This document shows, piece after piece, positions 265 through 5,064 of a DNA stretch of 5,064 nucleotides. Under the pieces are notes generated by a model. That model was not told the origin of the DNA. It saw nothing but the letters and a program-made list of their open reading frames with translations, and ran no database searches. Source of the stretch: a virus. Position 1 is the stretch's first letter, and the number at the start of each line of letters is the position of its first letter. The DNA is taken from positions 1 to 5,064 of IMG/VR virus record IMGVR_UViG_3300022693_003385, one strand, 5' to 3'. The position numbers and the translations under genes are program-made.

Positions 265-690
265 ATGGCACGTAGAAGAAAGAAAGCCTCAAGACGAAGA
301 AGCCGATCGGTTTCACTAATTAATTTAGCAGAAAGTTATGCTTATGCAGATACATTAACCTCTGGAGTTATGGGAACTACTCCATTAGGATTTATTACAG
401 GCGCGTCTGATATTGGAATGAAACGAATGCCTGATTCTGTAGGCGGTTATAACACATCTAGTATGGTAATGACAGGTACAGATCAAATATCCTTAGCAGA
501 TATTACTACGAATCCGGGTGCATCGTTTAATGCTATGCAGGCAAATCTGTCCAGCAATTATATGAGCATGTTTTACAAAGCCGCAGCCATAAATGTAAGT
601 TTTAAATTAGGTAAAAGATTACTTCGTAGACCTATTTCAAACGTAAATAGAAATATCTTTCGGCCCTTGGGAGCGGGTTTTAAATTATAA
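265..690 (+). CDS. Hypothetical protein with an arginine-rich N-terminus, possibly a nucleic-acid-binding or internal virion protein.
   Basis: 141-aa ORF with an ATG start. The first 15 residues, MARRRKKASRRRSRS, include 9 basic ones, and the C-terminus (KLGKRLLRRPISNVNRNIFRP) is also basic. It sits directly ahead of the tightly spaced operon. Confidence 0.7.
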   Translation: MARRRKKASRRRSRSVSLINLAESYAYADTLTSGVMGTTPLGFITGASDIGMKRMPDSVGGYNTSSMVMTGTDQISLADITTNPGASFNAMQANLSSNYMSMFYKAAAINVSFKLGKRLLRRPISNVNRNIFRPLGAGFKL

Positions 691-703: not shown

Positions 704-1390
704 ATGACTACACAAAATGTATCAGGAGTCCTAAACTGCACTAGCGGTTTTAAAATTCCATTAAACGCAACAATCACTGACGGTACAGAAGCAAGTCTAA
801 CTACAGATACTGCTTTCACTGTAACGGCTCAAAATATTGGCGACTTTGCTAATGGTCAAACTGTAACTTCTGGATTAGTTACTGCAGGAGCAAACATATC
901 ATACGCATACATACTAAGGAAAGGATTGATCCTTTCTTTAATACCATTTGCAGTTAAGGGAGTTGCATGTGGAACTCCTTCTCTTGCTCGCCCTGTGACT
1001 TTAATGGCTGGAGATCAACTCCGAGTTTTCACTATGGTTGCTGCTGGCAGAAATGCGTCTCTAGCGGTAGTGACTAACCAAGGTGTTCCTCGTATCTTCA
1101 TCGGTGCAAGTGTAGCGGCAGGTGCGGGAACTTTCCAACTTGTAGACCTCCAGACTTCGAATTCCATAGGAGAAACTCTCCAGGGCCAAGTTGTTCAGAT
1201 GGCACAATTTACTTCAGTAGATCAAGCATTAATTACAAGCGTGGCAGGTGGCGCACAAGTAACTATGAGTAATGGAAATTTGAGCGGAAGTATTCCTGCA
1301 ACTGATCCAATTGAAACACAACCTTACATGAAGCCTTGCTCAATTCCAGTTCAATTAAATTTCACAGCACAATACATAACTTCTGCTTAA
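704..1390 (+). CDS. Hypothetical structural protein, the candidate major capsid protein. No family is assigned.
   Basis: 228-aa ORF with a strong SD. It is rich in T/V/A/G/S, has few charged residues, and has no His or Trp. It has a beta-strand-like alternating pattern and sits between the Arg-rich protein and the fibre gene. Confidence 0.85.
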   Translation: MTTQNVSGVLNCTSGFKIPLNATITDGTEASLTTDTAFTVTAQNIGDFANGQTVTSGLVTAGANISYAYILRKGLILSLIPFAVKGVACGTPSLARPVTLMAGDQLRVFTMVAAGRNASLAVVTNQGVPRIFIGASVAAGAGTFQLVDLQTSNSIGETLQGQVVQMAQFTSVDQALITSVAGGAQVTMSNGNLSGSIPATDPIETQPYMKPCSIPVQLNFTAQYITSA

Positions 1391-1400: not shown

Positions 1401-1562
1401 ATGGCTAAGATTACAAAGGCACAACAAAAAAGATTGATTAAGTCTATTGATTCAAAAGCAGTCAAATTGGCCTTTAATACTTTTAACCCTAGGATTTTAA
1501 CTCCACAAGATTACATGGCGATCGAGAAGATTCTGGCAAGAGCGATGAACCGAATAAAGTGA
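1401..1562 (+). CDS. Small basic hypothetical protein of 53 aa, absent from the supplied ORF track.
   Basis: Hand translation gives MAKITKAQQKRLIKSIDSKAVKLAFNTFNPRILTPQDYMAIEKILARAMNRIK*. It has a perfect SD and exactly fills the gap between 1390 and 1569 in the operon. Confidence 0.6.
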   Translation: MAKITKAQQKRLIKSIDSKAVKLAFNTFNPRILTPQDYMAIEKILARAMNRIK

Positions 1563-1563
1563 T
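1559..1563 (+). promoter_or_regulatory. Partial Shine-Dalgarno site (a)GTGAT for the gene at 1569.
   Basis: GTGAT lies 5 nt before the ATG, with the same motif register as the neighbouring genes. Confidence 0.4.
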
Positions 1564-1568
1564 ATGAA

Positions 1569-1787
1569 ATGCCCCTCCCTAATGCTGAAAGACGTAGCAA
1601 TAGAATTTACCCTATCATTAAGGGCAAGACGCTTGAAGAGATTGCTTCTGGTGAGAATCCTACAATTGATAATATCGGCAAACCGATCGATATAATGCTA
1701 TTGAATGAAGATGAACTAAGAAGATTAGTATTAATTAAACTCGCAATTACTGCCTGCAAGGCCGATTGGGATGGATTTTTGAGTTAG
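1569..1787 (+). CDS. Stand-alone paralogue of the N-terminal (putative virion-anchor) domain of the downstream fibre protein.
   Basis: The 72-aa ORF aligns by hand with residues 1-69 of the 460-aa protein over shared blocks MPLP.A...S.RIY...K...LE, NEDE.RRLVL..LA..A...DW.GFL. About 29 positions are identical. The ORF ends exactly where the fibre's Gly linker begins. Confidence 0.75.
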   Translation: MPLPNAERRSNRIYPIIKGKTLEEIASGENPTIDNIGKPIDIMLLNEDELRRLVLIKLAITACKADWDGFLS

Positions 1788-1792
1788 GAGAT
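1786..1792 (+). promoter_or_regulatory. Shine-Dalgarno site AGGAGAT for the fibre gene at 1798.
   Basis: AGGAGAT ends 5 nt before the ATG. Confidence 0.65.
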
Positions 1793-1797
1793 GAAAT

Positions 1798-3180
1798 ATG
1801 CCACTACCAGACGCACCAGATTACTCAAAAAGAATCTATGAACTATTGAAAGAGACCGATCTGGAGAACTTATCGTATAGTCAATTCAAGGGAGTTGCAG
1901 AAAAAATCTTTATTGAGCCTGAAAATGAAGACGAAATGCGTCGTTTAGTATTAGTTCAACTTGCTAGAATGGCCGTACGTGGTGACTGGAACGGATTTTT
2001 AACGGGTGGAGGAGGATCAGGAGCGCCAACTGACGCAGAATATGTAGTAATGGCACTCAATGGTACTCTAACTAACGAAAGAAAACTTACAGCAGGGGCT
2101 AACATAACTATTACAGATGGCGGAGCAGGTGGTAATGTAACCATTGCAGCATCTGGAGGTGCTGTATCATTTCCTCTTGAAGGATCGTTAGGTTCTGTAT
2201 CTGCTCCTACTTATTCATTTACGGGTGATACTAATACTGGAATGTATTCTCCTGCAGCCGATCAACTCGGTTTTACTGTTGGAGGTAATGAAAGACTAGG
2301 TGTAGCAAACAACAAAGTCACTGGAATTGCATTTCAAACATCAGGAACCAATACAGCAGCGGCTCCCGACTTTTCTTTTACTGCTGATGCAGATACTGGA
2401 ATCTTCAAAGCGGCCGCAAATCAAATAGGATTTTCTGCGGGTGGATCAGAGAAATTTAGAATGGCAGACGCAGGACAATTAGGAATTGGTGGGGCAAATT
2501 ATGGAACTGCAGGACAAGTATTGACATCTGCAGGAGCAACAAGTCCTCCTACCTGGTCCACTGCTGCAGGAGGAGGTAACGAATTTAACGCGGAATTAGT
2601 TGGTGTAGAATTAGACCAATCAGGTACTGGATATGCTGCGTTTGATATTTTGAGTTTACCACCATACGGCGCTAGTCGTTACAATACTGGATCAATAGAT
2701 ACTAAACAATATTTTTACCCTTTTATTGCTCCAGCATCTGGAGATATTTCAGAAATAATAATGAATTTTACTTCTGCATCATCTGGAGCGACTAATGTCT
2801 ACTATGGATTCTATAGAGATAATAACGGAGTGCCTTCAACTCTTTTGGGTTATGCTACTGCAGACGGAACTTCAACAGGTGAACAAAGTATTACTTCGTT
2901 TAGTTCTACAGTTACTCTGACTAGAGGAACTCAATTCTGGTTATCTCAAAATAAATCGACTACAGATTCTATTACTCAAAGAGCAATCGATAACATTTAC
3001 AGAGCAAGGATCGCGCCTTACGAATCATTCCCATCAACTACTAACGGTTACGGAACTTCATTGACTACTAATTCAAGTGTTTCTGCTGTTCCAAGTGATA
3101 TTACTGCAGAAGATTTAGAACCCGGCATATTTTTCTCAGGTTTAGGTGCTTGTCCTCATATTAGTATTAAAATTCTCTAG
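1798..3180 (+). CDS. Tail-fibre/spike-like host-recognition protein.
   Basis: 460-aa ORF with a modular layout:
- N-terminal helical domain, aa 1-68;
- TGGGGSG linker;
- the segment DAEYVVMALNGTLTNERKLTAGANITITDGGAGGNVTIAA;
- two copies of a roughly 35-aa repeat, AP.(Y/F)SFT.D.(N/D)TG(M/I)(Y/F)..AA.Q(L/I)GF..GG.E;
- a GQVLTSAGATSPPTW motif;
- a roughly 200-aa C-terminal domain rich in S/T/N.
From memory these motifs are typical of phage fibre proteins. I have not confirmed this by search. Confidence 0.9.
   Translation: MPLPDAPDYSKRIYELLKETDLENLSYSQFKGVAEKIFIEPENEDEMRRLVLVQLARMAVRGDWNGFLTGGGGSGAPTDAEYVVMALNGTLTNERKLTAGANITITDGGAGGNVTIAASGGAVSFPLEGSLGSVSAPTYSFTGDTNTGMYSPAADQLGFTVGGNERLGVANNKVTGIAFQTSGTNTAAAPDFSFTADADTGIFKAAANQIGFSAGGSEKFRMADAGQLGIGGANYGTAGQVLTSAGATSPPTWSTAAGGGNEFNAELVGVELDQSGTGYAAFDILSLPPYGASRYNTGSIDTKQYFYPFIAPASGDISEIIMNFTSASSGATNVYYGFYRDNNGVPSTLLGYATADGTSTGEQSITSFSSTVTLTRGTQFWLSQNKSTTDSITQRAIDNIYRARIAPYESFPSTTNGYGTSLTTNSSVSAVPSDITAEDLEPGIFFSGLGACPHISIKIL
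2200..2304 (+). repeat. Intragenic fibre repeat, unit 1 (aa 135-169).
   Basis: SAPTYSFTGDTNTGMYSPAADQLGFTVGGNERLGV aligns with unit 2 at about 16 of 35 identical positions. The units are offset by 53 aa. Confidence 0.7.
2359..2463 (+). repeat. Intragenic fibre repeat, unit 2 (aa 188-222).
   Basis: AAPDFSFTADADTGIFKAAANQIGFSAGGSEKFRM. See unit 1. Confidence 0.7.
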
Positions 3181-3185
3181 GTGAT
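3180..3185 (+). promoter_or_regulatory. Shine-Dalgarno site GGTGAT for the gene at 3189.
   Basis: The sequence reads taGGTGATtcaATG, with 3-nt spacing. The first G is the last base of the fibre stop codon. Confidence 0.7.
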
Positions 3186-3188
3186 TCA

Positions 3189-3635
3189 ATGCCTAAGCCA
3201 AAACCAGACCAAGTCGTTCGTCATGAAATAGTTCTAGGCCGATCTGAACGAGAATTAATTTCTGATGGCATTGCAGCATACCAATTTAACAGAATTACCA
3301 CTCCTTTAGTTGCATTATTTTCTGATGCTTCAGCAATGGGCTTGATTCTTGGTGGTTTGGCTACTTATTATGGATTCAAATTTGACATAATACCGGGAGC
3401 ATATAATACTGGATTGGAATTGTATAATGACTGGAAGATTCAATATGATGCATGGAGAGAAACTGCCGGAGATTTTGCAAACGATCCTATTGGAGAAATC
3501 TTAGGAATTTTAATTCCCAATATTAACTTTAATCCGGGTGGAAGAATAGACCCTGTAACTGGAATGCCTGTTCAATATCCATACGGGCCCACAACTCCTC
3601 CAAGTTATACACCCGGCACACCTAGACCCTATTGA
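3189..3635 (+). CDS. Hypothetical membrane protein with a Pro/Tyr-rich C-terminal tail.
   Basis: 148-aa ORF with a strong SD. It has one hydrophobic span, about aa 36-63 (ITTPLVALFSDASAMGLILGGLATYYGF). The C-terminus is PVQYPYGPTTPPSYTPGTPRPY. It is the last gene of the plus-strand operon. Confidence 0.8.
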   Translation: MPKPKPDQVVRHEIVLGRSERELISDGIAAYQFNRITTPLVALFSDASAMGLILGGLATYYGFKFDIIPGAYNTGLELYNDWKIQYDAWRETAGDFANDPIGEILGILIPNINFNPGGRIDPVTGMPVQYPYGPTTPPSYTPGTPRPY

Positions 3636-3644
3636 GAGTGTAAA

Positions 3645-3688
3645 GTCAATAGCGATAATTCTTCGCCATCATAGGCGAAAATATTGAC
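3645..3688. terminator. Nested inverted repeat in the convergent intergenic gap, a candidate bidirectional terminator.
   Basis: The outer arms are GTCAATA(3645-3651) and TATTGAC(3682-3688). The inner hairpin is TTCGCC(3662-3667), loop ATCATA, GGCGAA(3674-3679). It lies between the stop codons at 3635 (+) and 3703 (-). The flanking U-tracts are poor. Confidence 0.45.
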
Positions 3689-3702
3689 CTCTCGACCCCC
3701 TA

Positions 3703-4026
3703 TTAAGGCAATTTTTTCCAGAACTTAAACCTATTATCTTTGAGTGCTTTGCTCTCAGCGTTCAATTGATCTATTTGTTGATTTAACTGCCCGATCACTT
3801 CTAGCATCTTTTTTCTTTCAAAGGGTGCAATAACTACACCATGTGATGATTGAATTAGTTTACCAGTGAAACCTTCTTCATCATATTCTTTTGCCCATTT
3901 AGGTTCAGTGTAGAACCAGATGATCGCTTTAGATACATTATCTGACATTTCTCCAGCCTTCGATCTGGTTCTAATTAATTCAGATGCTTGTTTATAGAGA
4001 GTAAATGAATGTAGAATTTTACTCAT
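3703..4026 (-). CDS. Hypothetical protein of 107 aa with a coiled-coil-like C-terminal half. It is the last gene of the minus-strand cassette.
   Basis: ATG start at 4026 with the SD GGAGAT (4033-4038 on the minus strand) 6 nt upstream. The start directly abuts the stop of the upstream gene (TAG-ATG). The segment MLEVIGQLNQQIDQLNAESKALK looks heptad-like. Confidence 0.75.
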   Translation of the reverse strand: MSKILHSFTLYKQASELIRTRSKAGEMSDNVSKAIIWFYTEPKWAKEYDEEGFTGKLIQSSHGVVIAPFERKKMLEVIGQLNQQIDQLNAESKALKDNRFKFWKKLP

Positions 4027-4269
4027 CTAACAATCTCCACTTAATAGAATTTCAAAGTGCTCCATAGTTTTCTTGATCATATTTACTTTATCAAATAATG
4101 ATTCTAAAATTCTAATCTGAGTTTCATCATAACATCCTCTATGATAAATATTAGGATCGCATTCTTCATTGCATTGACATCCTTTTTCGATTTCATCCCA
4201 TTCATGATCTTTGGCTAATAATAACGCTCCACAAATGACATCCCATTCTTTCGCTCTTAATCCAATCAT
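4027..4269 (-). CDS. Small Cys/His-rich hypothetical protein of 80 aa, possibly metal-binding.
   Basis: It contains GCQCNEECDPNIYHRGC plus Cys13 and Cys80. A GAGG SD sits inside the upstream gene, and there is a 4-nt ATGA overlap with the upstream gene at 4266-4269. Confidence 0.75.
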   Translation of the reverse strand: MIGLRAKEWDVICGALLLAKDHEWDEIEKGCQCNEECDPNIYHRGCYDETQIRILESLFDKVNMIKKTMEHFEILLSGDC

Positions 4270-4454
4270 TCTTCCTCATCCCTAAATCGGCCTTGTTTAG
4301 CCAAACATACAACCATTTCAACAAATGAATGTGAACCAACTAACTCTCCACAGGTTAAACACGGATCATTAGCATCAAATCCTTGTTCTTCAAGACACAT
4401 AGCACACCCGTAGTACCCACAATTAGGACAAACAACAGTTCTTGCATCCATCAT
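4266..4454 (-). CDS. Small zinc-ribbon-like protein of 62 aa.
   Basis: It has three CxxC pairs, at C9-C12, C17-C20 and C32-C35 (CPNCGYYGCAMC...CLTC). A GAGG SD lies 7 nt upstream. Its start overlaps the stop of the 39-codon ORF (TAATG). Confidence 0.75.
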   Translation of the reverse strand: MMDARTVVCPNCGYYGCAMCLEEQGFDANDPCLTCGELVGSHSFVEMVVCLAKQGRFRDEEE

Positions 4455-4573
4455 TACCAGTCCTCACTGATCGTGTCCTTACATCGTTCACAAATTCCCC
4501 ATGTATGTCTCTTTTCGTCTTGATAGCATTTCCTTATTCTGCAAAGGCAGCATTTGTCGTCGTATTCACCCAT
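4454..4573 (-). CDS. Mini zinc-ribbon-like protein of 39 aa, absent from the ORF track. It is the first gene of the minus-strand cassette.
   Basis: Hand translation of the reverse complement gives MGEYDDKCCLCRIRKCYQDEKRHTWGICERCKDTISEDW*. It has two CxxC pairs, at C8-C11 and C28-C31. A GAGG SD (4580-4583) lies 6 nt before the ATG. Its stop TAA shares one base with the next ATG. Confidence 0.55.
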   Translation of the reverse strand: MGEYDDKCCLCRIRKCYQDEKRHTWGICERCKDTISEDW

Positions 4574-4601
4574 ATTATGCCTCACGACCTAAAATCAATA
4601 T

Positions 4602-4629
4602 ATAATATCACCGGCAGAATGCCGATCAA
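4602..4629 (-). promoter_or_regulatory. Candidate promoter of the minus-strand cassette.
   Basis: On the minus strand it reads TTGATC(4629-4624), a 16-nt spacer, then an extended -10, TGaTATTAT (4610-4602). It is about 30 nt upstream of the ATG at 4573. The same ATATTATATAT stretch could also be read as an archaeal TATA box. Confidence 0.45.
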
Positions 4630-4673
4630 ATCTTTTGATTCGATTAAAATCGTTTTACGCGATTGCATATCGC
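4612..4673. repeat. Cluster of four contiguous short inverted repeats, candidate operator or origin structures.
   Basis: The four repeats are:
- CGGCA-gaa-TGCCG (4612-4624);
- ATCAAA-tct-TTTGAT (4625-4639);
- CGATT-aa-AATCG (4641-4652);
- GCGAT-tgcat-ATCGC (4659-4673).
The region is also dense in GATT/AATC tetramers. Confidence 0.5.
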
Positions 4674-4716
4674 CTGAAAGGTATCCTTTCGACTCATGAT
4701 TAAGATAAAAAGATTA

Positions 4717-4735
4717 GGGTGGGGTTCGGGGAGGG
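4717..4735 (+). other. G-quadruplex-capable motif GGGTGGGGTTCGGGGAGGG.
   Basis: There are four runs of at least 3 G separated by loops of 1, 3 and 1 nt. It sits on the plus strand of an AT-rich intergenic region, 32 nt upstream of the ATG at 4767. Confidence 0.6.
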
Positions 4736-4766
4736 TATTAAGAACCGATCGGGCTACGATGGGGAT

Positions 4767-5064
4767 ATGATGGAGAGCCTCTATATTATAGGAGTCATAA
4801 TCTTAGGTTTTGGGGTTATGGCTAAACTTTTACATGATCTTGCAAACCAAATAGACGAAGGATTAATAGAATTGGACGAAAAATTAGCATTAGCGATACA
4901 ATCAGTAGTTGAAAAAATACCGGGATTAGGAGATTCCGAGCCAATTAATCCGATCCAAATGGCTTTCGCGCAATTGATCGGAAATATGGCTCAACAAAAA
5001 CAAGTTATTATTCCTCCTAAAATAATTGAAAGAGACCAAAAAGGATTATTTGTTTCAAAAGACG
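4767..5064 (+). CDS. Small protein with an N-terminal membrane anchor. It is 100 aa in the circularised unit; the ORF runs off the window end and finishes at 147-149.
   Basis: Hand translation gives MMESLYIIGVIILGFGVMAKLLHDLANQIDEGLIELDEKLALAIQSVVEKIPGLGDSEPINPIQMAFAQLIGNMAQQKQVIIPPKIIERDQKGLFVSKD(E*). Residues about 5-22 are hydrophobic. The start is ATG 4767 or ATG 4770, the latter with GGGGAT 3 nt upstream. It is absent from the ORF track because it is truncated by the window edge. Confidence 0.7.
   Translation, partial: MMESLYIIGVIILGFGVMAKLLHDLANQIDEGLIELDEKLALAIQSVVEKIPGLGDSEPINPIQMAFAQLIGNMAQQKQVIIPPKIIERDQKGLFVSKD
4921..5064. repeat. Terminal direct repeat, copy 2, identical to 1..144.
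   Basis: Same exact 144-nt match. The window stops exactly where the identity would otherwise continue. Confidence 0.95.

What the first reader, a model, noticed from the sequence alone, without database searches (positions are those of the whole stretch)
1569..2001. Stand-alone duplicate of the fibre N-terminal domain immediately upstream of the fibre gene
What the sequence shows:
- The 72-aa ORF and residues 1-69 of the 460-aa fibre align end to end, with shared blocks MPLP.A...S.RIY...K...LE, NEDE.RRLVL..LA..A...DW.GFL. By hand alignment about 29 of 72 positions are identical, with one 3-aa gap.
- The short ORF stops one residue after GFL, exactly where the fibre continues into its TGGGGSG linker.
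- The nucleotide sequences are well diverged, so the copy is old and the protein-level conservation suggests selection.

Established knowledge: the N-terminal domains of phage fibres dock the fibre onto the particle, while distal parts bind the receptor.

Inference, with three possibilities:
- a docking-site competitor or stoichiometry regulator;
- a decoy that displaces a helper phage's own fibres, if the element is a satellite;
- the relic of a second fibre gene that lost its distal part.

Side note: the next gene (3189) also starts MPKP, so three consecutive genes begin with MP.P.
Basis: partly seen in the sequence, partly recalled or inferred. Interest (0 to 1): 0.7.

Follow-up and report, generated by a model that had tools for sequence, protein, structure and literature searches.

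The report
Free copy of fibre anchor domain
A tiny circular marine virus-like element (a "Charybdis element") encodes a conserved 72-residue free-standing copy of the anchor domain of its own three-armed fibre. This copy most likely fills the two empty places when a trimeric fibre sits on a five-fold anchoring ring, as phage PR772 does with a different protein fold.

Summary
**Observation: confirmed.** ORF 1569-1787 (72 aa, "S") aligns end to end with residues 1-69 of the 460-aa fibre ("F", 1798-3180). Identity is 31/72, E=1e-17, z=27 against shuffles. S stops exactly where F enters its GGGGSG linker.

**What the window is.** It is a complete ~4.92-kb circular Charybdis element (Kirchberger & Luque, bioRxiv 2025). 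F is its Type II Gp5 "protrusion". The shared domain is the N-terminal helical "knob". That paper does not describe S.

**S is a real gene, not a relic.**
- dN/dS is 0.09.
- It lies directly upstream of F, usually -1 to 13 nt away.
- It occurs in 89 of 89 complete genomes with trimeric fibres (Type II and III).
- It occurs in 0 of 30 genomes with pentameric Type I Gp5 and 0 of 7 knob-less genomes.
- S and F share lineage-specific C-terminal helix variants despite diverged codons.

**Best explanation (confidence ~0.5, inferred).** Three fibre knobs plus two free knobs close a five-membered anchoring ring. The solved precedent is PR772/PRD1, where three P5 plus two P31 form the penton. Its gene layout, paralogue identity (38%) and domain boundary are the same, but the fold is unrelated.

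**Verdict.** This is a new variant of a known solution. It also argues that Charybdis fibres attach at five-fold sites.

The parts
1569..1787 (+). S: stand-alone knob protein, 72 aa (MPLPNA...NEDELRRLVL...DWDGFLS*). It is not named in the Charybdis paper and lies between gp4 and gp5.
   Evidence: - ORF; paralogy to F.
- Orthologues occur in all trimeric-fibre relatives.
- dN/dS is 0.09.
- It has an ATG start with a GTGAT SD-like motif upstream.
1798..2004 (+). Knob domain of the fibre (F residues 1-69), the paralogue of S.
   Evidence: - Paralogy.
- dN/dS is 0.05.
2005..2022 (+). GGGGSG linker (F residues 70-75). This is the domain boundary where S ends and where distal fibre modules are exchanged.
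   Evidence: - Read from the sequence.
- A Gly-rich linker follows the knob in nearly all fibres.
- Distal modules are swapped at this point (paper).
1798..3180 (+). Fibre gene (Gp5, long Type II protrusion), 460 aa. It comprises the knob, the linker, a shaft with phage tail-fibre repeats (about nt 2083-2529) and a head domain starting at GGGNEFNAEL (nt 2569-3177).
   Evidence: - PHROG tail-fibre hits cover residues 96-244.
- The head is shared with short Type II fibres.
- L024, the paper's Type II exemplar, lies in the same clade.
1401..1562 (+). gp4 homologue (53 aa, basic). Its TGA stop lies inside the SD-like motif of S.
   Evidence: - It resembles the prototype gp4 in Table S1 of the paper by eye; no formal alignment was run.
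- phmmer with the window's p53 detects it in 27 of the first 52 loci.
704..1390 (+). Gp3, the hallmark double-Greek-key protein (228 aa) and putative capsid protein.
   Evidence: - 190 homologues were found, all unannotated and on small marine contigs.
- The AF2 model is all-beta with pLDDT 83. It has no PDB Foldseek match.
- It is 36% identical to the prototype Gp3.
265..690 (+). Gp2 homologue (141 aa, Arg-rich N-terminus MARRRKKASRRRSRS).
   Evidence: - ORF; present in 49 of 52 loci.
- The prototype gp2 has the same character.
3189..3635 (+). Gp6 homologue (148 aa) with a hydrophobic segment. Its N-terminus is MPKPKPDQVVRHEIVL.
   Evidence: - ORF; present in 49 of 52 loci.
- The prototype gp6 starts MPRKAPDQVIEHRIAL.
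4767..5064 (+). Gp1 homologue (membrane protein). It runs across the circle junction and ends at position 149 of the first repeat copy.
   Evidence: - The junction-spanning ORF is; it is present in 52 of 52 loci.
- The prototype gp1 is also an N-terminal transmembrane protein.
3703..4585 (-). Accessory module: four small ORFs of 107, 80, 62 (Cys-rich) and 43 (Cys-rich) aa. There is no methyltransferase.
   Evidence: - ORFs; no significant family hits.
- The 107-aa ORF occurs in 43 loci and the 43-aa ORF in 36 loci.
4921..5064 (.). Terminal direct repeat, identical to positions 1-144. It is the assembly signature of a circular 4920-bp genome.

Best explanation
**What the element is.** The window is a complete circular Charybdis element. 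Its fibre (Gp5, Type II) has an N-terminal helical knob that anchors it to the particle.

**The ring and the mismatch.**
- In relatives with short Type I Gp5, five copies of the homologous knob are predicted to form a closed five-membered ring.
- A trimeric fibre supplies only three knobs.

**Proposed role of S.**
- S is a knob with nothing attached. It is translated from the gene directly upstream of the fibre gene.
- Two S copies take the two vacant ring positions, giving a 3 F + 2 S hetero-pentamer. This resolves the 3-on-5 symmetry mismatch.
- The few genomes with two different free knobs would assemble as 3 F + 1 + 1.
- The shared C-terminal helix would form the ring or particle contacts. 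The diverged N-terminal half would distinguish positions with and without a shaft.

**Shown versus inferred.**
- Shown: paralogy, selection, linkage, strict co-occurrence with trimeric fibres, and co-variation of the helix.
- Inferred: physical co-assembly, the 3:2 stoichiometry, and a five-fold attachment site.
For: 1. **Paralogy ending at the linker boundary**.
2. **Strong purifying selection.** dN/dS is 0.09 for S and 0.05 for the F knob, with saturated synonymous divergence between the paralogues.
3. **Tight linkage.** The S stop lies -1 to 13 nt from the F start in 83 of 100 loci. Both have conserved ATG starts and SD-like motifs.
4. **Co-occurrence in complete circular genomes**.
   - Type II: 86/86 carry S.
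   - Type III, an unrelated trimeric distal module with a tail-fibre shaft and S74-like end: 3/3 carry S.
   - Type I, predicted pentamer: 0/30. The Gp3-to-Gp5 gap is mostly 173-210 nt and holds only gp4. A maximum-sensitivity Type I knob HMM finds no free copy.
   - Knob-less basal clades: 0/7.
5. **Two lineages.** Trimeric fibres with S occur in two separated lineages of the Gp3 tree.
6. **The knobs are homologous.** By hhalign, Type I versus F gives probability 90% (E=1.6e-6) and Type I versus S gives 78%. The paper reports knob structures overlapping at under 1.4 A. It also reports that Type I modelled as a trimer gives 'incomplete pentamers (missing two proteins)'.
7. **Co-variation of the C-terminal helix.**
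   - S and F of one genome share lineage-specific helix variants, reaching 86-93% identity in the helix against 37-79% overall.
   - The same codon is used at identical residues only 52% of the time on average (as low as 4/21).
   - When the same Type III module sits on two knob lineages, S matches its own F each time.
8. **A solved precedent with the same genetic design.**
   - The PR772 penton is three P5 plus two P31, and P31 is similar to the P5 N-domain (PMC6750898).
   - PRD1 gene XXXI lies immediately upstream of gene V.
   - P31 and P5 are 38% identical, E=1e-20.
   - P31 ends at ...GVW, where P5 enters its collagen-like linker.
Against: - **No multimer model or experiment.** The AF2 monomer of S is poor (pLDDT 62, one clear helix). 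That fits an oligomer-dependent fold but shows nothing.
- **The trimer may stand alone.** The paper's AF3 Type II trimer scores ipTM 0.78 without S. The three knobs might therefore close on their own.
- **No particle has been seen.** Whether Charybdis elements have a capsid or any five-fold site is itself hypothetical.
- **Phylogenetic non-independence.** The association rests on few independent events: about two lineages, on an NJ tree, and recombination is possible.
- **Sampling limits.** Type I genomes came from only one broad Gp3 group. Clades L, N and P of the paper were not sampled.
- **Gene conversion.** It contributes to S-F similarity in some genomes (L237 21/24 and L055 18/23 same codons).
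Confidence: 0.5

Rival explanations
1. S forms its own homo-oligomer, for example a five-membered ring. This ring caps or plugs attachment sites that carry no fibre, so S sets how many sites bear fibres.
For: - The homologous Type I knob is predicted to form homopentameric rings.
- S keeps the ring-forming C-terminal helix.
- In PRD1, P31 alone can build the penton when P5 is missing (PMC6750898).
- Some genomes have two free knobs.
Against: - It does not explain why S is absent from all Type I genomes.
- It does not solve how three fibre knobs sit at the same kind of site.
- The tight S-F helix matching within genomes is more naturally explained by mixed assembly.
Confidence: 0.2
2. S is a transient assembly factor. 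It acts as a placeholder or chaperone that binds the fibre knob or its docking site during assembly and is absent from the finished particle.
For: - The S gene sits immediately upstream of the fibre gene and is translationally coupled to it.
- S is under strong selection.
- S shares an interaction surface with F.
Against: - Known fibre chaperones act on distal trimerisation domains and are not paralogues of the anchor domain (my own knowledge, not tested here).
- The Type III fibres already carry their own S74-like intramolecular chaperone yet still keep S.
Confidence: 0.1
3. S and F co-assemble, but not as 3+2 on a five-fold site. Examples are a 3+3 hexameric collar, or an anchor in a membrane vesicle with no icosahedral vertex.
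For: - The elements are enriched in the vesicle / small tail-less virus density fraction, and no capsid has been seen.
- Gp1 and Gp6 have hydrophobic segments.
Against: - The only oligomer predicted with high confidence for the homologous knob alone is a pentamer (ipTM 0.94). Trimer models of it leave exactly two gaps.
Confidence: 0.1
4. S is a decoy that displaces the fibres of a helper phage (satellite scenario), or it is a decaying remnant of a second fibre gene.
For: - No replication or packaging genes are recognisable, so a satellite lifestyle is not excluded.
Against: - Every knob homologue listed by the word-index search of 5.8 billion proteins (the 120 hits shown) is a 49-123 aa protein on a short contig of at most ~14 kb. 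The fibre homologues found lie on 4-6 kb Charybdis-type contigs. No larger phage appears among the hits.
- S tracks its own element's fibre knob.
- The frame is intact with dN/dS 0.09 in about 160 genomes.
Confidence: 0.04

Closest known systems
P31 / P5 vertex of tectiviruses PRD1 and PR772 (penton = 3 x P5 N-domain + 2 x P31; eLife 2019, PMC6750898)
   Same: - A small stand-alone protein is a paralogue of the N-terminal base domain of a trimeric spike. Identity is 38% in PRD1 and 43% here.
- Its gene lies immediately upstream of the spike gene, in the same orientation, with almost no spacer.
- It ends exactly where the spike enters a Gly-rich or collagen-like linker.
- Distal spike parts are variable.
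   Different: - The fold and sequence are unrelated: a ~125-aa jelly-roll penton domain there, a ~70-aa helical bundle here.
- The capsid context differs: a DJR capsid with a membrane, packaging ATPase and 15-kb linear genome there. Here it is a 4.9-kb circle with a double-Greek-key Gp3 and no ATPase.
- The 3:2 assembly is solved by cryo-EM there and only inferred here.
Charybdis elements, Gp5 'protrusions' Types I-III (Kirchberger & Luque, bioRxiv 10.1101/2025.08.03.668216)
   Same: - The window is one of these elements.
- Shared features are the size, circularity, Gp1-Gp3, gp4, Gp5 and Gp6 order, marine origin and the Type II fibre with a conserved knob.
   Different: - The paper describes the knob only as part of Gp5.
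- Its text and the supplements held contain no mention of a knob-only gene, paralogy or duplication.
- Its prototype is Type I and has no such gene.
Other solutions to trimer-on-pentamer mismatch: adenovirus fibre tails on penton base; vibriophage NO16 (two trimeric GP13 spikes on pentameric GP14, PMC13552765)
   Same: A trimeric receptor-binding fibre is attached at a five-fold site.
   Different: - In those viruses a homopentameric base is kept, and short fibre N-terminal tails or strands bind asymmetrically.
- No paralogue of the fibre's own domain is involved.

Membership tests
Charybdis elements | Circular genome of about 3.7-5.2 kb | tested here: met
   Positions 1-144 are identical to 4921-5064, giving a 4920-bp circle. 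Relatives are 4.1-5.9 kb with assembly-type terminal repeats.
Charybdis elements | Hallmark Gp3 (~230 aa, two beta-sandwich domains, at least 30% identity across the group) | tested here: met
   - p228 is 36% identical to the prototype Gp3.
- It is 91% identical to the Gp3 of the paper's exemplar IMGVR_UViG_3300017782_005554 (L024).
- The AF2 model is all-beta with about 19 strands and has no Foldseek PDB match, as the paper reports.
Charybdis elements | Structural module gp1-gp2-gp3-(gp4)-gp5-gp6 opposed to an accessory module; no replication, packaging or plasmid hallmark genes | tested here: met
   There are no Pfam or PHROG hits except tail-fibre repeats. This genome's accessory module lacks the common methyltransferase.
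Gp5 Type II protrusion (trimeric) | N-terminal triple-helix knob, stalk, C-terminal lectin-type SJR head; predicted trimer | tested here: inconclusive
   - The knob sequence is nearly identical to that of the paper's Type II exemplar.
- The stalk gives tail-fibre PHROG hits.
- The head motif is shared with short Type II fibres.
- The oligomeric state was not modelled here and is taken from the paper.
PRD1/PR772-type heteropentameric vertex (P31 + P5) | Stand-alone paralogue of the spike's N-terminal base domain, encoded next to the spike gene | tested here: met
   for the window; for PRD1.
PRD1/PR772-type heteropentameric vertex (P31 + P5) | Base domain is a single jelly-roll homologous to P31, in a DJR-capsid, membrane-containing virus with a packaging ATPase | tested here: not met
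   - The knob is about 70 aa and helical (paper).
- It has no sequence match to any PDB chain.
- No ATPase is present.
- According to the paper, Gp3 falls outside the DJR proteins.
PRD1/PR772-type heteropentameric vertex (P31 + P5) | Physical 3:2 hetero-pentamer at the five-fold vertex | not testable with these tools
   No multimer prediction was available and no particles exist. Support is indirect: the co-occurrence data and the co-variation data.
Phage tail-fibre chaperone / assembly protein | Usually encoded downstream of the fibre, acts on the distal domain, and is not a paralogue of the anchor domain | tested here: not met
   S is upstream of the fibre and is a paralogue of the anchor domain. 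It has no family hits.

The most novel reading that the evidence does not exclude
The knob ring is itself the five-fold vertex element of a self-built icosahedral shell made of the double-Greek-key Gp3. It is homopentameric in Type I elements and a 3 F + 2 S hetero-pentamer in Type II and III elements. In that case Charybdis elements are autonomous viruses of marine group II archaea with a previously unseen capsid architecture. That architecture would have converged on the tectivirus trick of duplicating the spike base to fit trimers onto five-fold vertices.
Probability: 0.3. Interest if true: 0.8.

Novelty: new variant of a known kind. Interest (0 to 1): 0.6.

Why it matters
**The open question.** Charybdis elements are abundant and global, but their nature is unresolved: virus, satellite or vesicle-borne plasmid.

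**What S adds.**
- A conserved free anchor domain appears only when the fibre is trimeric and never when it is pentameric. This is hard to explain unless the fibre docks at a five-fold site.
- That favours a self-assembled icosahedral particle over a hijacked phage tail or a plain vesicle.
- It gives a direct test that needs no culturable host: does 3 F + 2 S form a closed ring?

**Wider significance.**
- It would be a second, independent case, in an unrelated fold, of resolving a symmetry mismatch by duplicating the spike base domain. That would suggest the solution is general.
- It also explains how these elements can swap distal fibre modules freely while keeping one particle-side interface.

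Tried and rejected
**Searches that found nothing.**
- Pfam and PHROG scans of all ten ORFs gave only tail-fibre repeats in F.
- blastn of the whole element against 50,697 phage records gave no match.
- PDB sequence searches with Gp3 and knob profiles gave nothing meaningful.
- Foldseek of the Gp3 model against PDB gave nothing at E<=0.001.

**Structure prediction.**
- The AF2 monomer of S has pLDDT 62, too poor for a fold search.
- No multimer modelling was possible.

**Attempts to fetch Type I elements from the viral-contig collection failed.**
- Queries were the prototype Gp3, alignment A4 and the Type I exemplar Gp5. That collection lacks them.
- The metagenome scan solved the problem.
- Alignment A7 was too divergent to search with.

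**Ideas rejected.**
- The large proteins hitting the Gp3 profile are not cellular relatives. They are WD40 or Ig repeat proteins, so the hits are additive repeat artefacts.
- A p53-S readthrough fusion is unlikely. The two are in frame in the window's clade but not in other clades.
- The 'MP.P' similarity of Gp6 to the knob is not homology, because the knob HMM does not hit Gp6.
- Promoter-like sites are no more frequent than in shuffled sequence (15 vs 15.3 +/- 4.6). Terminator-like sites are only slightly above (6 vs 3.1 +/- 1.9).
Full report
**1. The observation**

- The window carries an exact 144-nt terminal repeat (1-144 = 4921-5064). It is therefore a complete 4920-bp circle.
- ORF 1569-1787 (72 aa, here "S") aligns end to end with residues 1-69 of the 460-aa ORF 1798-3180 ("F"). 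BLASTP gives 31/72 identical, one 3-aa gap and E=1e-17.
- The local alignment score is 139, against 23 +/- 4.3 for shuffled sequences (z=27).
- S ends ...DWDGFLS*. F continues ...DWNGFLT followed by GGGGSG.
- Nucleotide identity over the aligned codons is 51% and synonymous differences are saturated.

**2. What the element is**

- None of the ten ORFs has a Pfam family. Only the middle of F hits PHROG tail-fibre families. There is no DNA match among 50,697 phage records.
- Searching IMG/VR with F returned 51 contigs of 4.1-5.9 kb. Most have assembly-type terminal repeats, and they share the same gene set.
- The 228-aa protein has 190 unannotated homologues on small marine contigs. A few are binned to Poseidoniales.
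- Its AF2 model is confident and all-beta but matches nothing in the PDB.
- A literature search identified the family as the "Charybdis elements" of Kirchberger & Luque (bioRxiv 10.1101/2025.08.03.668216).
  - These are ~4.6-kb circular, probably dsDNA, exclusively marine elements.
  - They are enriched in the vesicle / small tail-less virus density fraction.
  - Their putative hosts are marine group II archaea.
- Gene assignments in the window:

| Paper's name | Window ORF | Note |
|---|---|---|
| Gp1 | junction-spanning ORF | membrane protein |
| Gp2 | p141 | Arg-rich |
| Gp3 | p228 | double-Greek-key hallmark |
| gp4 | p53 | small, basic |
| Gp5 | F | "protrusion" |
| Gp6 | p148 | hydrophobic segment |

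  These assignments rest.
- The paper's Type II exemplar (IMGVR_UViG_3300017782_005554 = L024) lies in the window's own clade, with 91% Gp3 identity.
- The paper describes the Gp5 N-terminus as an anti-parallel triple-helix "knob" shared by three protrusion types.
  - Type I is about 165 aa and confidently predicted as a pentamer whose knobs form a ring.
  - Types II and III are predicted trimers.
  - Type I modelled as a trimer gives "incomplete pentamers (missing two proteins)".
- The paper never mentions a knob-only gene. Searches of its text and held supplements for gp4, paralog and duplicat found nothing relevant. Its gp4 is the homologue of p53, not of S.

**3. S is a conserved gene**

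- Every one of the first 51 relatives has an S orthologue of about 72 aa directly upstream of a knob-bearing fibre. The same holds in further clades.
- Orthologue comparisons give dN/dS = 0.09 for S and 0.05 for the F knob.
- S always stops within a residue or two of the knob's end.
- The S-to-F spacer is -1 to 13 nt in 83 of 100 loci. Starts are conserved ATGs preceded by SD-like GTGAT (S) or GGAG (F) motifs.
- This rules out a relic.

**4. The decisive pattern**

I sampled other Charybdis clades through their Gp3. Counts of genomes carrying a free knob:

| Gp5 type | Predicted oligomer | Circular genomes with S | Non-circular contigs with S |
|---|---|---|---|
| Type II | trimer | 86 / 86 | 68 / 69 |
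| Type III | trimer | 3 / 3 | not sampled |
| Type I | pentamer | 0 / 30 | 0 / 39 |
| Knob-less basal clades | none | 0 / 7 | not classified |

- Among the 86 Type II genomes, 84 have one free knob and L046 has two in tandem. L143's apparent second copy is a junction artefact.
- The Type III fibres have a quite different distal module: a tail-fibre shaft with an S74-like intramolecular-chaperone end. I fetched them using the distal part alone, and S still lies 1-2 nt upstream of the fibre.
- In Type I genomes the Gp3-to-Gp5 gap is mostly 173-210 nt and holds only gp4. A maximum-sensitivity Type I knob HMM finds no free copy. The same HMM does weakly detect Type II fibre knobs.
- The basal clades carry a ~140-aa beta-rich protein that has no knob at all.
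- On an NJ Gp3 tree, the trimeric-fibre-plus-S state occupies two separated lineages.
- Profile-profile comparison supports homology of the Type I knob with F (probability 90%, E=1.6e-6) and with S (78%).

**5. Co-variation of S and F**

- S-F identity within a genome ranges from 37 to 79% overall.
- The C-terminal helix is much more similar, up to 93%, and carries lineage-specific variants shared by both proteins of the same genome. Examples are RLCLVAFARMVTKGSFDGWL, LIIVNLARLCVK.EW.GLL and RRLVLVNLARLTVK.
- At identical residues in this helix the same codon is used only 52% of the time on average, and as little as 4/21. The baselines are 33% for between-genome S-versus-F pairs and 57% for S orthologues. 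The match is therefore mostly maintained at protein level.
- A few pairs (L237, L055) look like recent gene conversion.
- The same Type III module sits on two different knob lineages. In each case S matches its own fibre's knob.
- S and the F knob therefore behave as one co-adapted, particle-side unit. Distal modules recombine at the linker.

**6. Mechanism**

- The simplest reading is ring completion. Knobs are built for a five-membered ring, a trimeric fibre brings three, and two free knobs fill the rest.
- L046 and L047 have two distinct free knobs and would assemble as 3+1+1.
- This is inference. I could not run multimer predictions. The S monomer model is poor (pLDDT 62). No particle has ever been seen.
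- The paper's Type II trimer models score acceptably without S. That is the main point against the model.
- The rival explanations, with their evidence, are given in the Rival explanations section.

**7. Comparison with the known**

The closest system is the tectivirus vertex.
- In PR772 the penton base is a hetero-pentamer of three P5 spike N-domains and two P31. P31 has high sequence similarity to the P5 N-domain (PMC6750898).
- I checked the genetic design in PRD1.
  - Gene XXXI (P31, 126 aa) lies immediately upstream of gene V (P5).
  - The two proteins are 38% identical over 115 aa, E=1e-20.
  - P31 ends at ...GVW, exactly where P5 enters its collagen-like linker.
- The Charybdis S/F pair reproduces each of these features. 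However, it uses a ~70-aa helical knob rather than a jelly roll, and it sits in an element with no DJR capsid protein and no packaging ATPase. It works like P31/P5 but is not a member of that family.
- Adenovirus and vibriophage NO16 solve the mismatch differently, by asymmetric binding of fibre tails to a homopentamer.

**8. Verdict**

The duplication and selection claims are right, the relic is refuted, the decoy is unsupported, and 'stoichiometry' is near the mark.
- The element is already described, but the free knob, its strict link to trimeric fibres and its co-variation with the fibre knob are not.
- I rate it a new variant of a known kind, with interest 0.6. It offers a concrete, host-free test of whether Charybdis elements build five-fold vertices.

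Noticed in passing
L046 (S1 at 3478-3720, S2 at about 3678-3935, F at 3886-4782); L047 (1813-2037, 2019-2249, 2254-3141): Two relatives carry two different free knob genes in tandem before the fibre. The second resembles a fibre-type knob, and the fibre itself has an extended N-terminus. This is compatible with a 3+1+1 ring, or with a fibre gene split at the linker.
   Followed up: partly
L256 versus L257/L258 (fibres at 2281-3534, 2180-3415 and 3484-4719): The same Type III distal module (82-100% identical) is grafted onto two different knob lineages. This shows recombination exactly at the knob/linker boundary, while S stays matched to the resident knob.
   Followed up: yes
L230-L234, L254, L255 (ORF of 138-145 aa about 140-180 nt after Gp3): Divergent or basal Charybdis clades (some with Gp3 split into ~120-aa halves) encode a beta-rich ~140-aa protein at the gp5 position. 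It has no helical knob and no detectable similarity to Type I Gp5 (hhalign probability 0.2%).
   Followed up: partly
window 704-1390 (Gp3 profile): About 25 giant proteins (500-2900 aa) hit Gp3 profile positions ~133-190 in 5-13 tandem stretches. Pfam shows they are WD40 (nSTAND NTPase) or bacterial Ig/cadherin repeat proteins. The hits are additive repeat artefacts, not relatives of Gp3.
   Followed up: yes
window 3703-4585, minus strand: The accessory module of this element has no methyltransferase, which is the commonest accessory gene in the family. It holds four small ORFs instead. Two are Cys-rich (62 aa with CxxC...CxxC, and 43 aa). The 43-aa and 107-aa ORFs are conserved in 36 and 43 of 52 relatives respectively.
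   Followed up: no
window 1560-1571: The TGA stop of gp4 (p53) lies inside the GTGAT SD-like motif of S and is in frame with the S start, 9 nt downstream. Readthrough would therefore fuse gp4 to S. The in-frame relation is not kept in other clades such as L235, so it is probably incidental.
   Followed up: partly
window 3189-3236 (Gp6 N-terminus): The Gp6 N-terminus MPKPKPDQVVRHEIVL is conserved with the Type I prototype (MPRKAPDQVIEHRIAL). The knob HMM gives no hit to Gp6.
   Followed up: partly
L072, L101, L103, L119, L131 (7.5-8 kb contigs): Some contigs hold two element copies. In several of them (L072, L101, L103) the copies are not identical, for example fibres of 267 and 279 aa in L072. 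These may be hetero-concatemers or chimeric assemblies of co-occurring strains.
   Followed up: no
L045, L111 and similar (large Type II clade) versus L237, L241, L245 (L050 clade): The same S and F helix variant (RLCLVAFARMVTKGSFDGWL) occurs in genomes that fall into two separate Gp3 lineages on the NJ tree. This suggests that the S + F-knob unit moves between capsid backgrounds as a module.
   Followed up: partly
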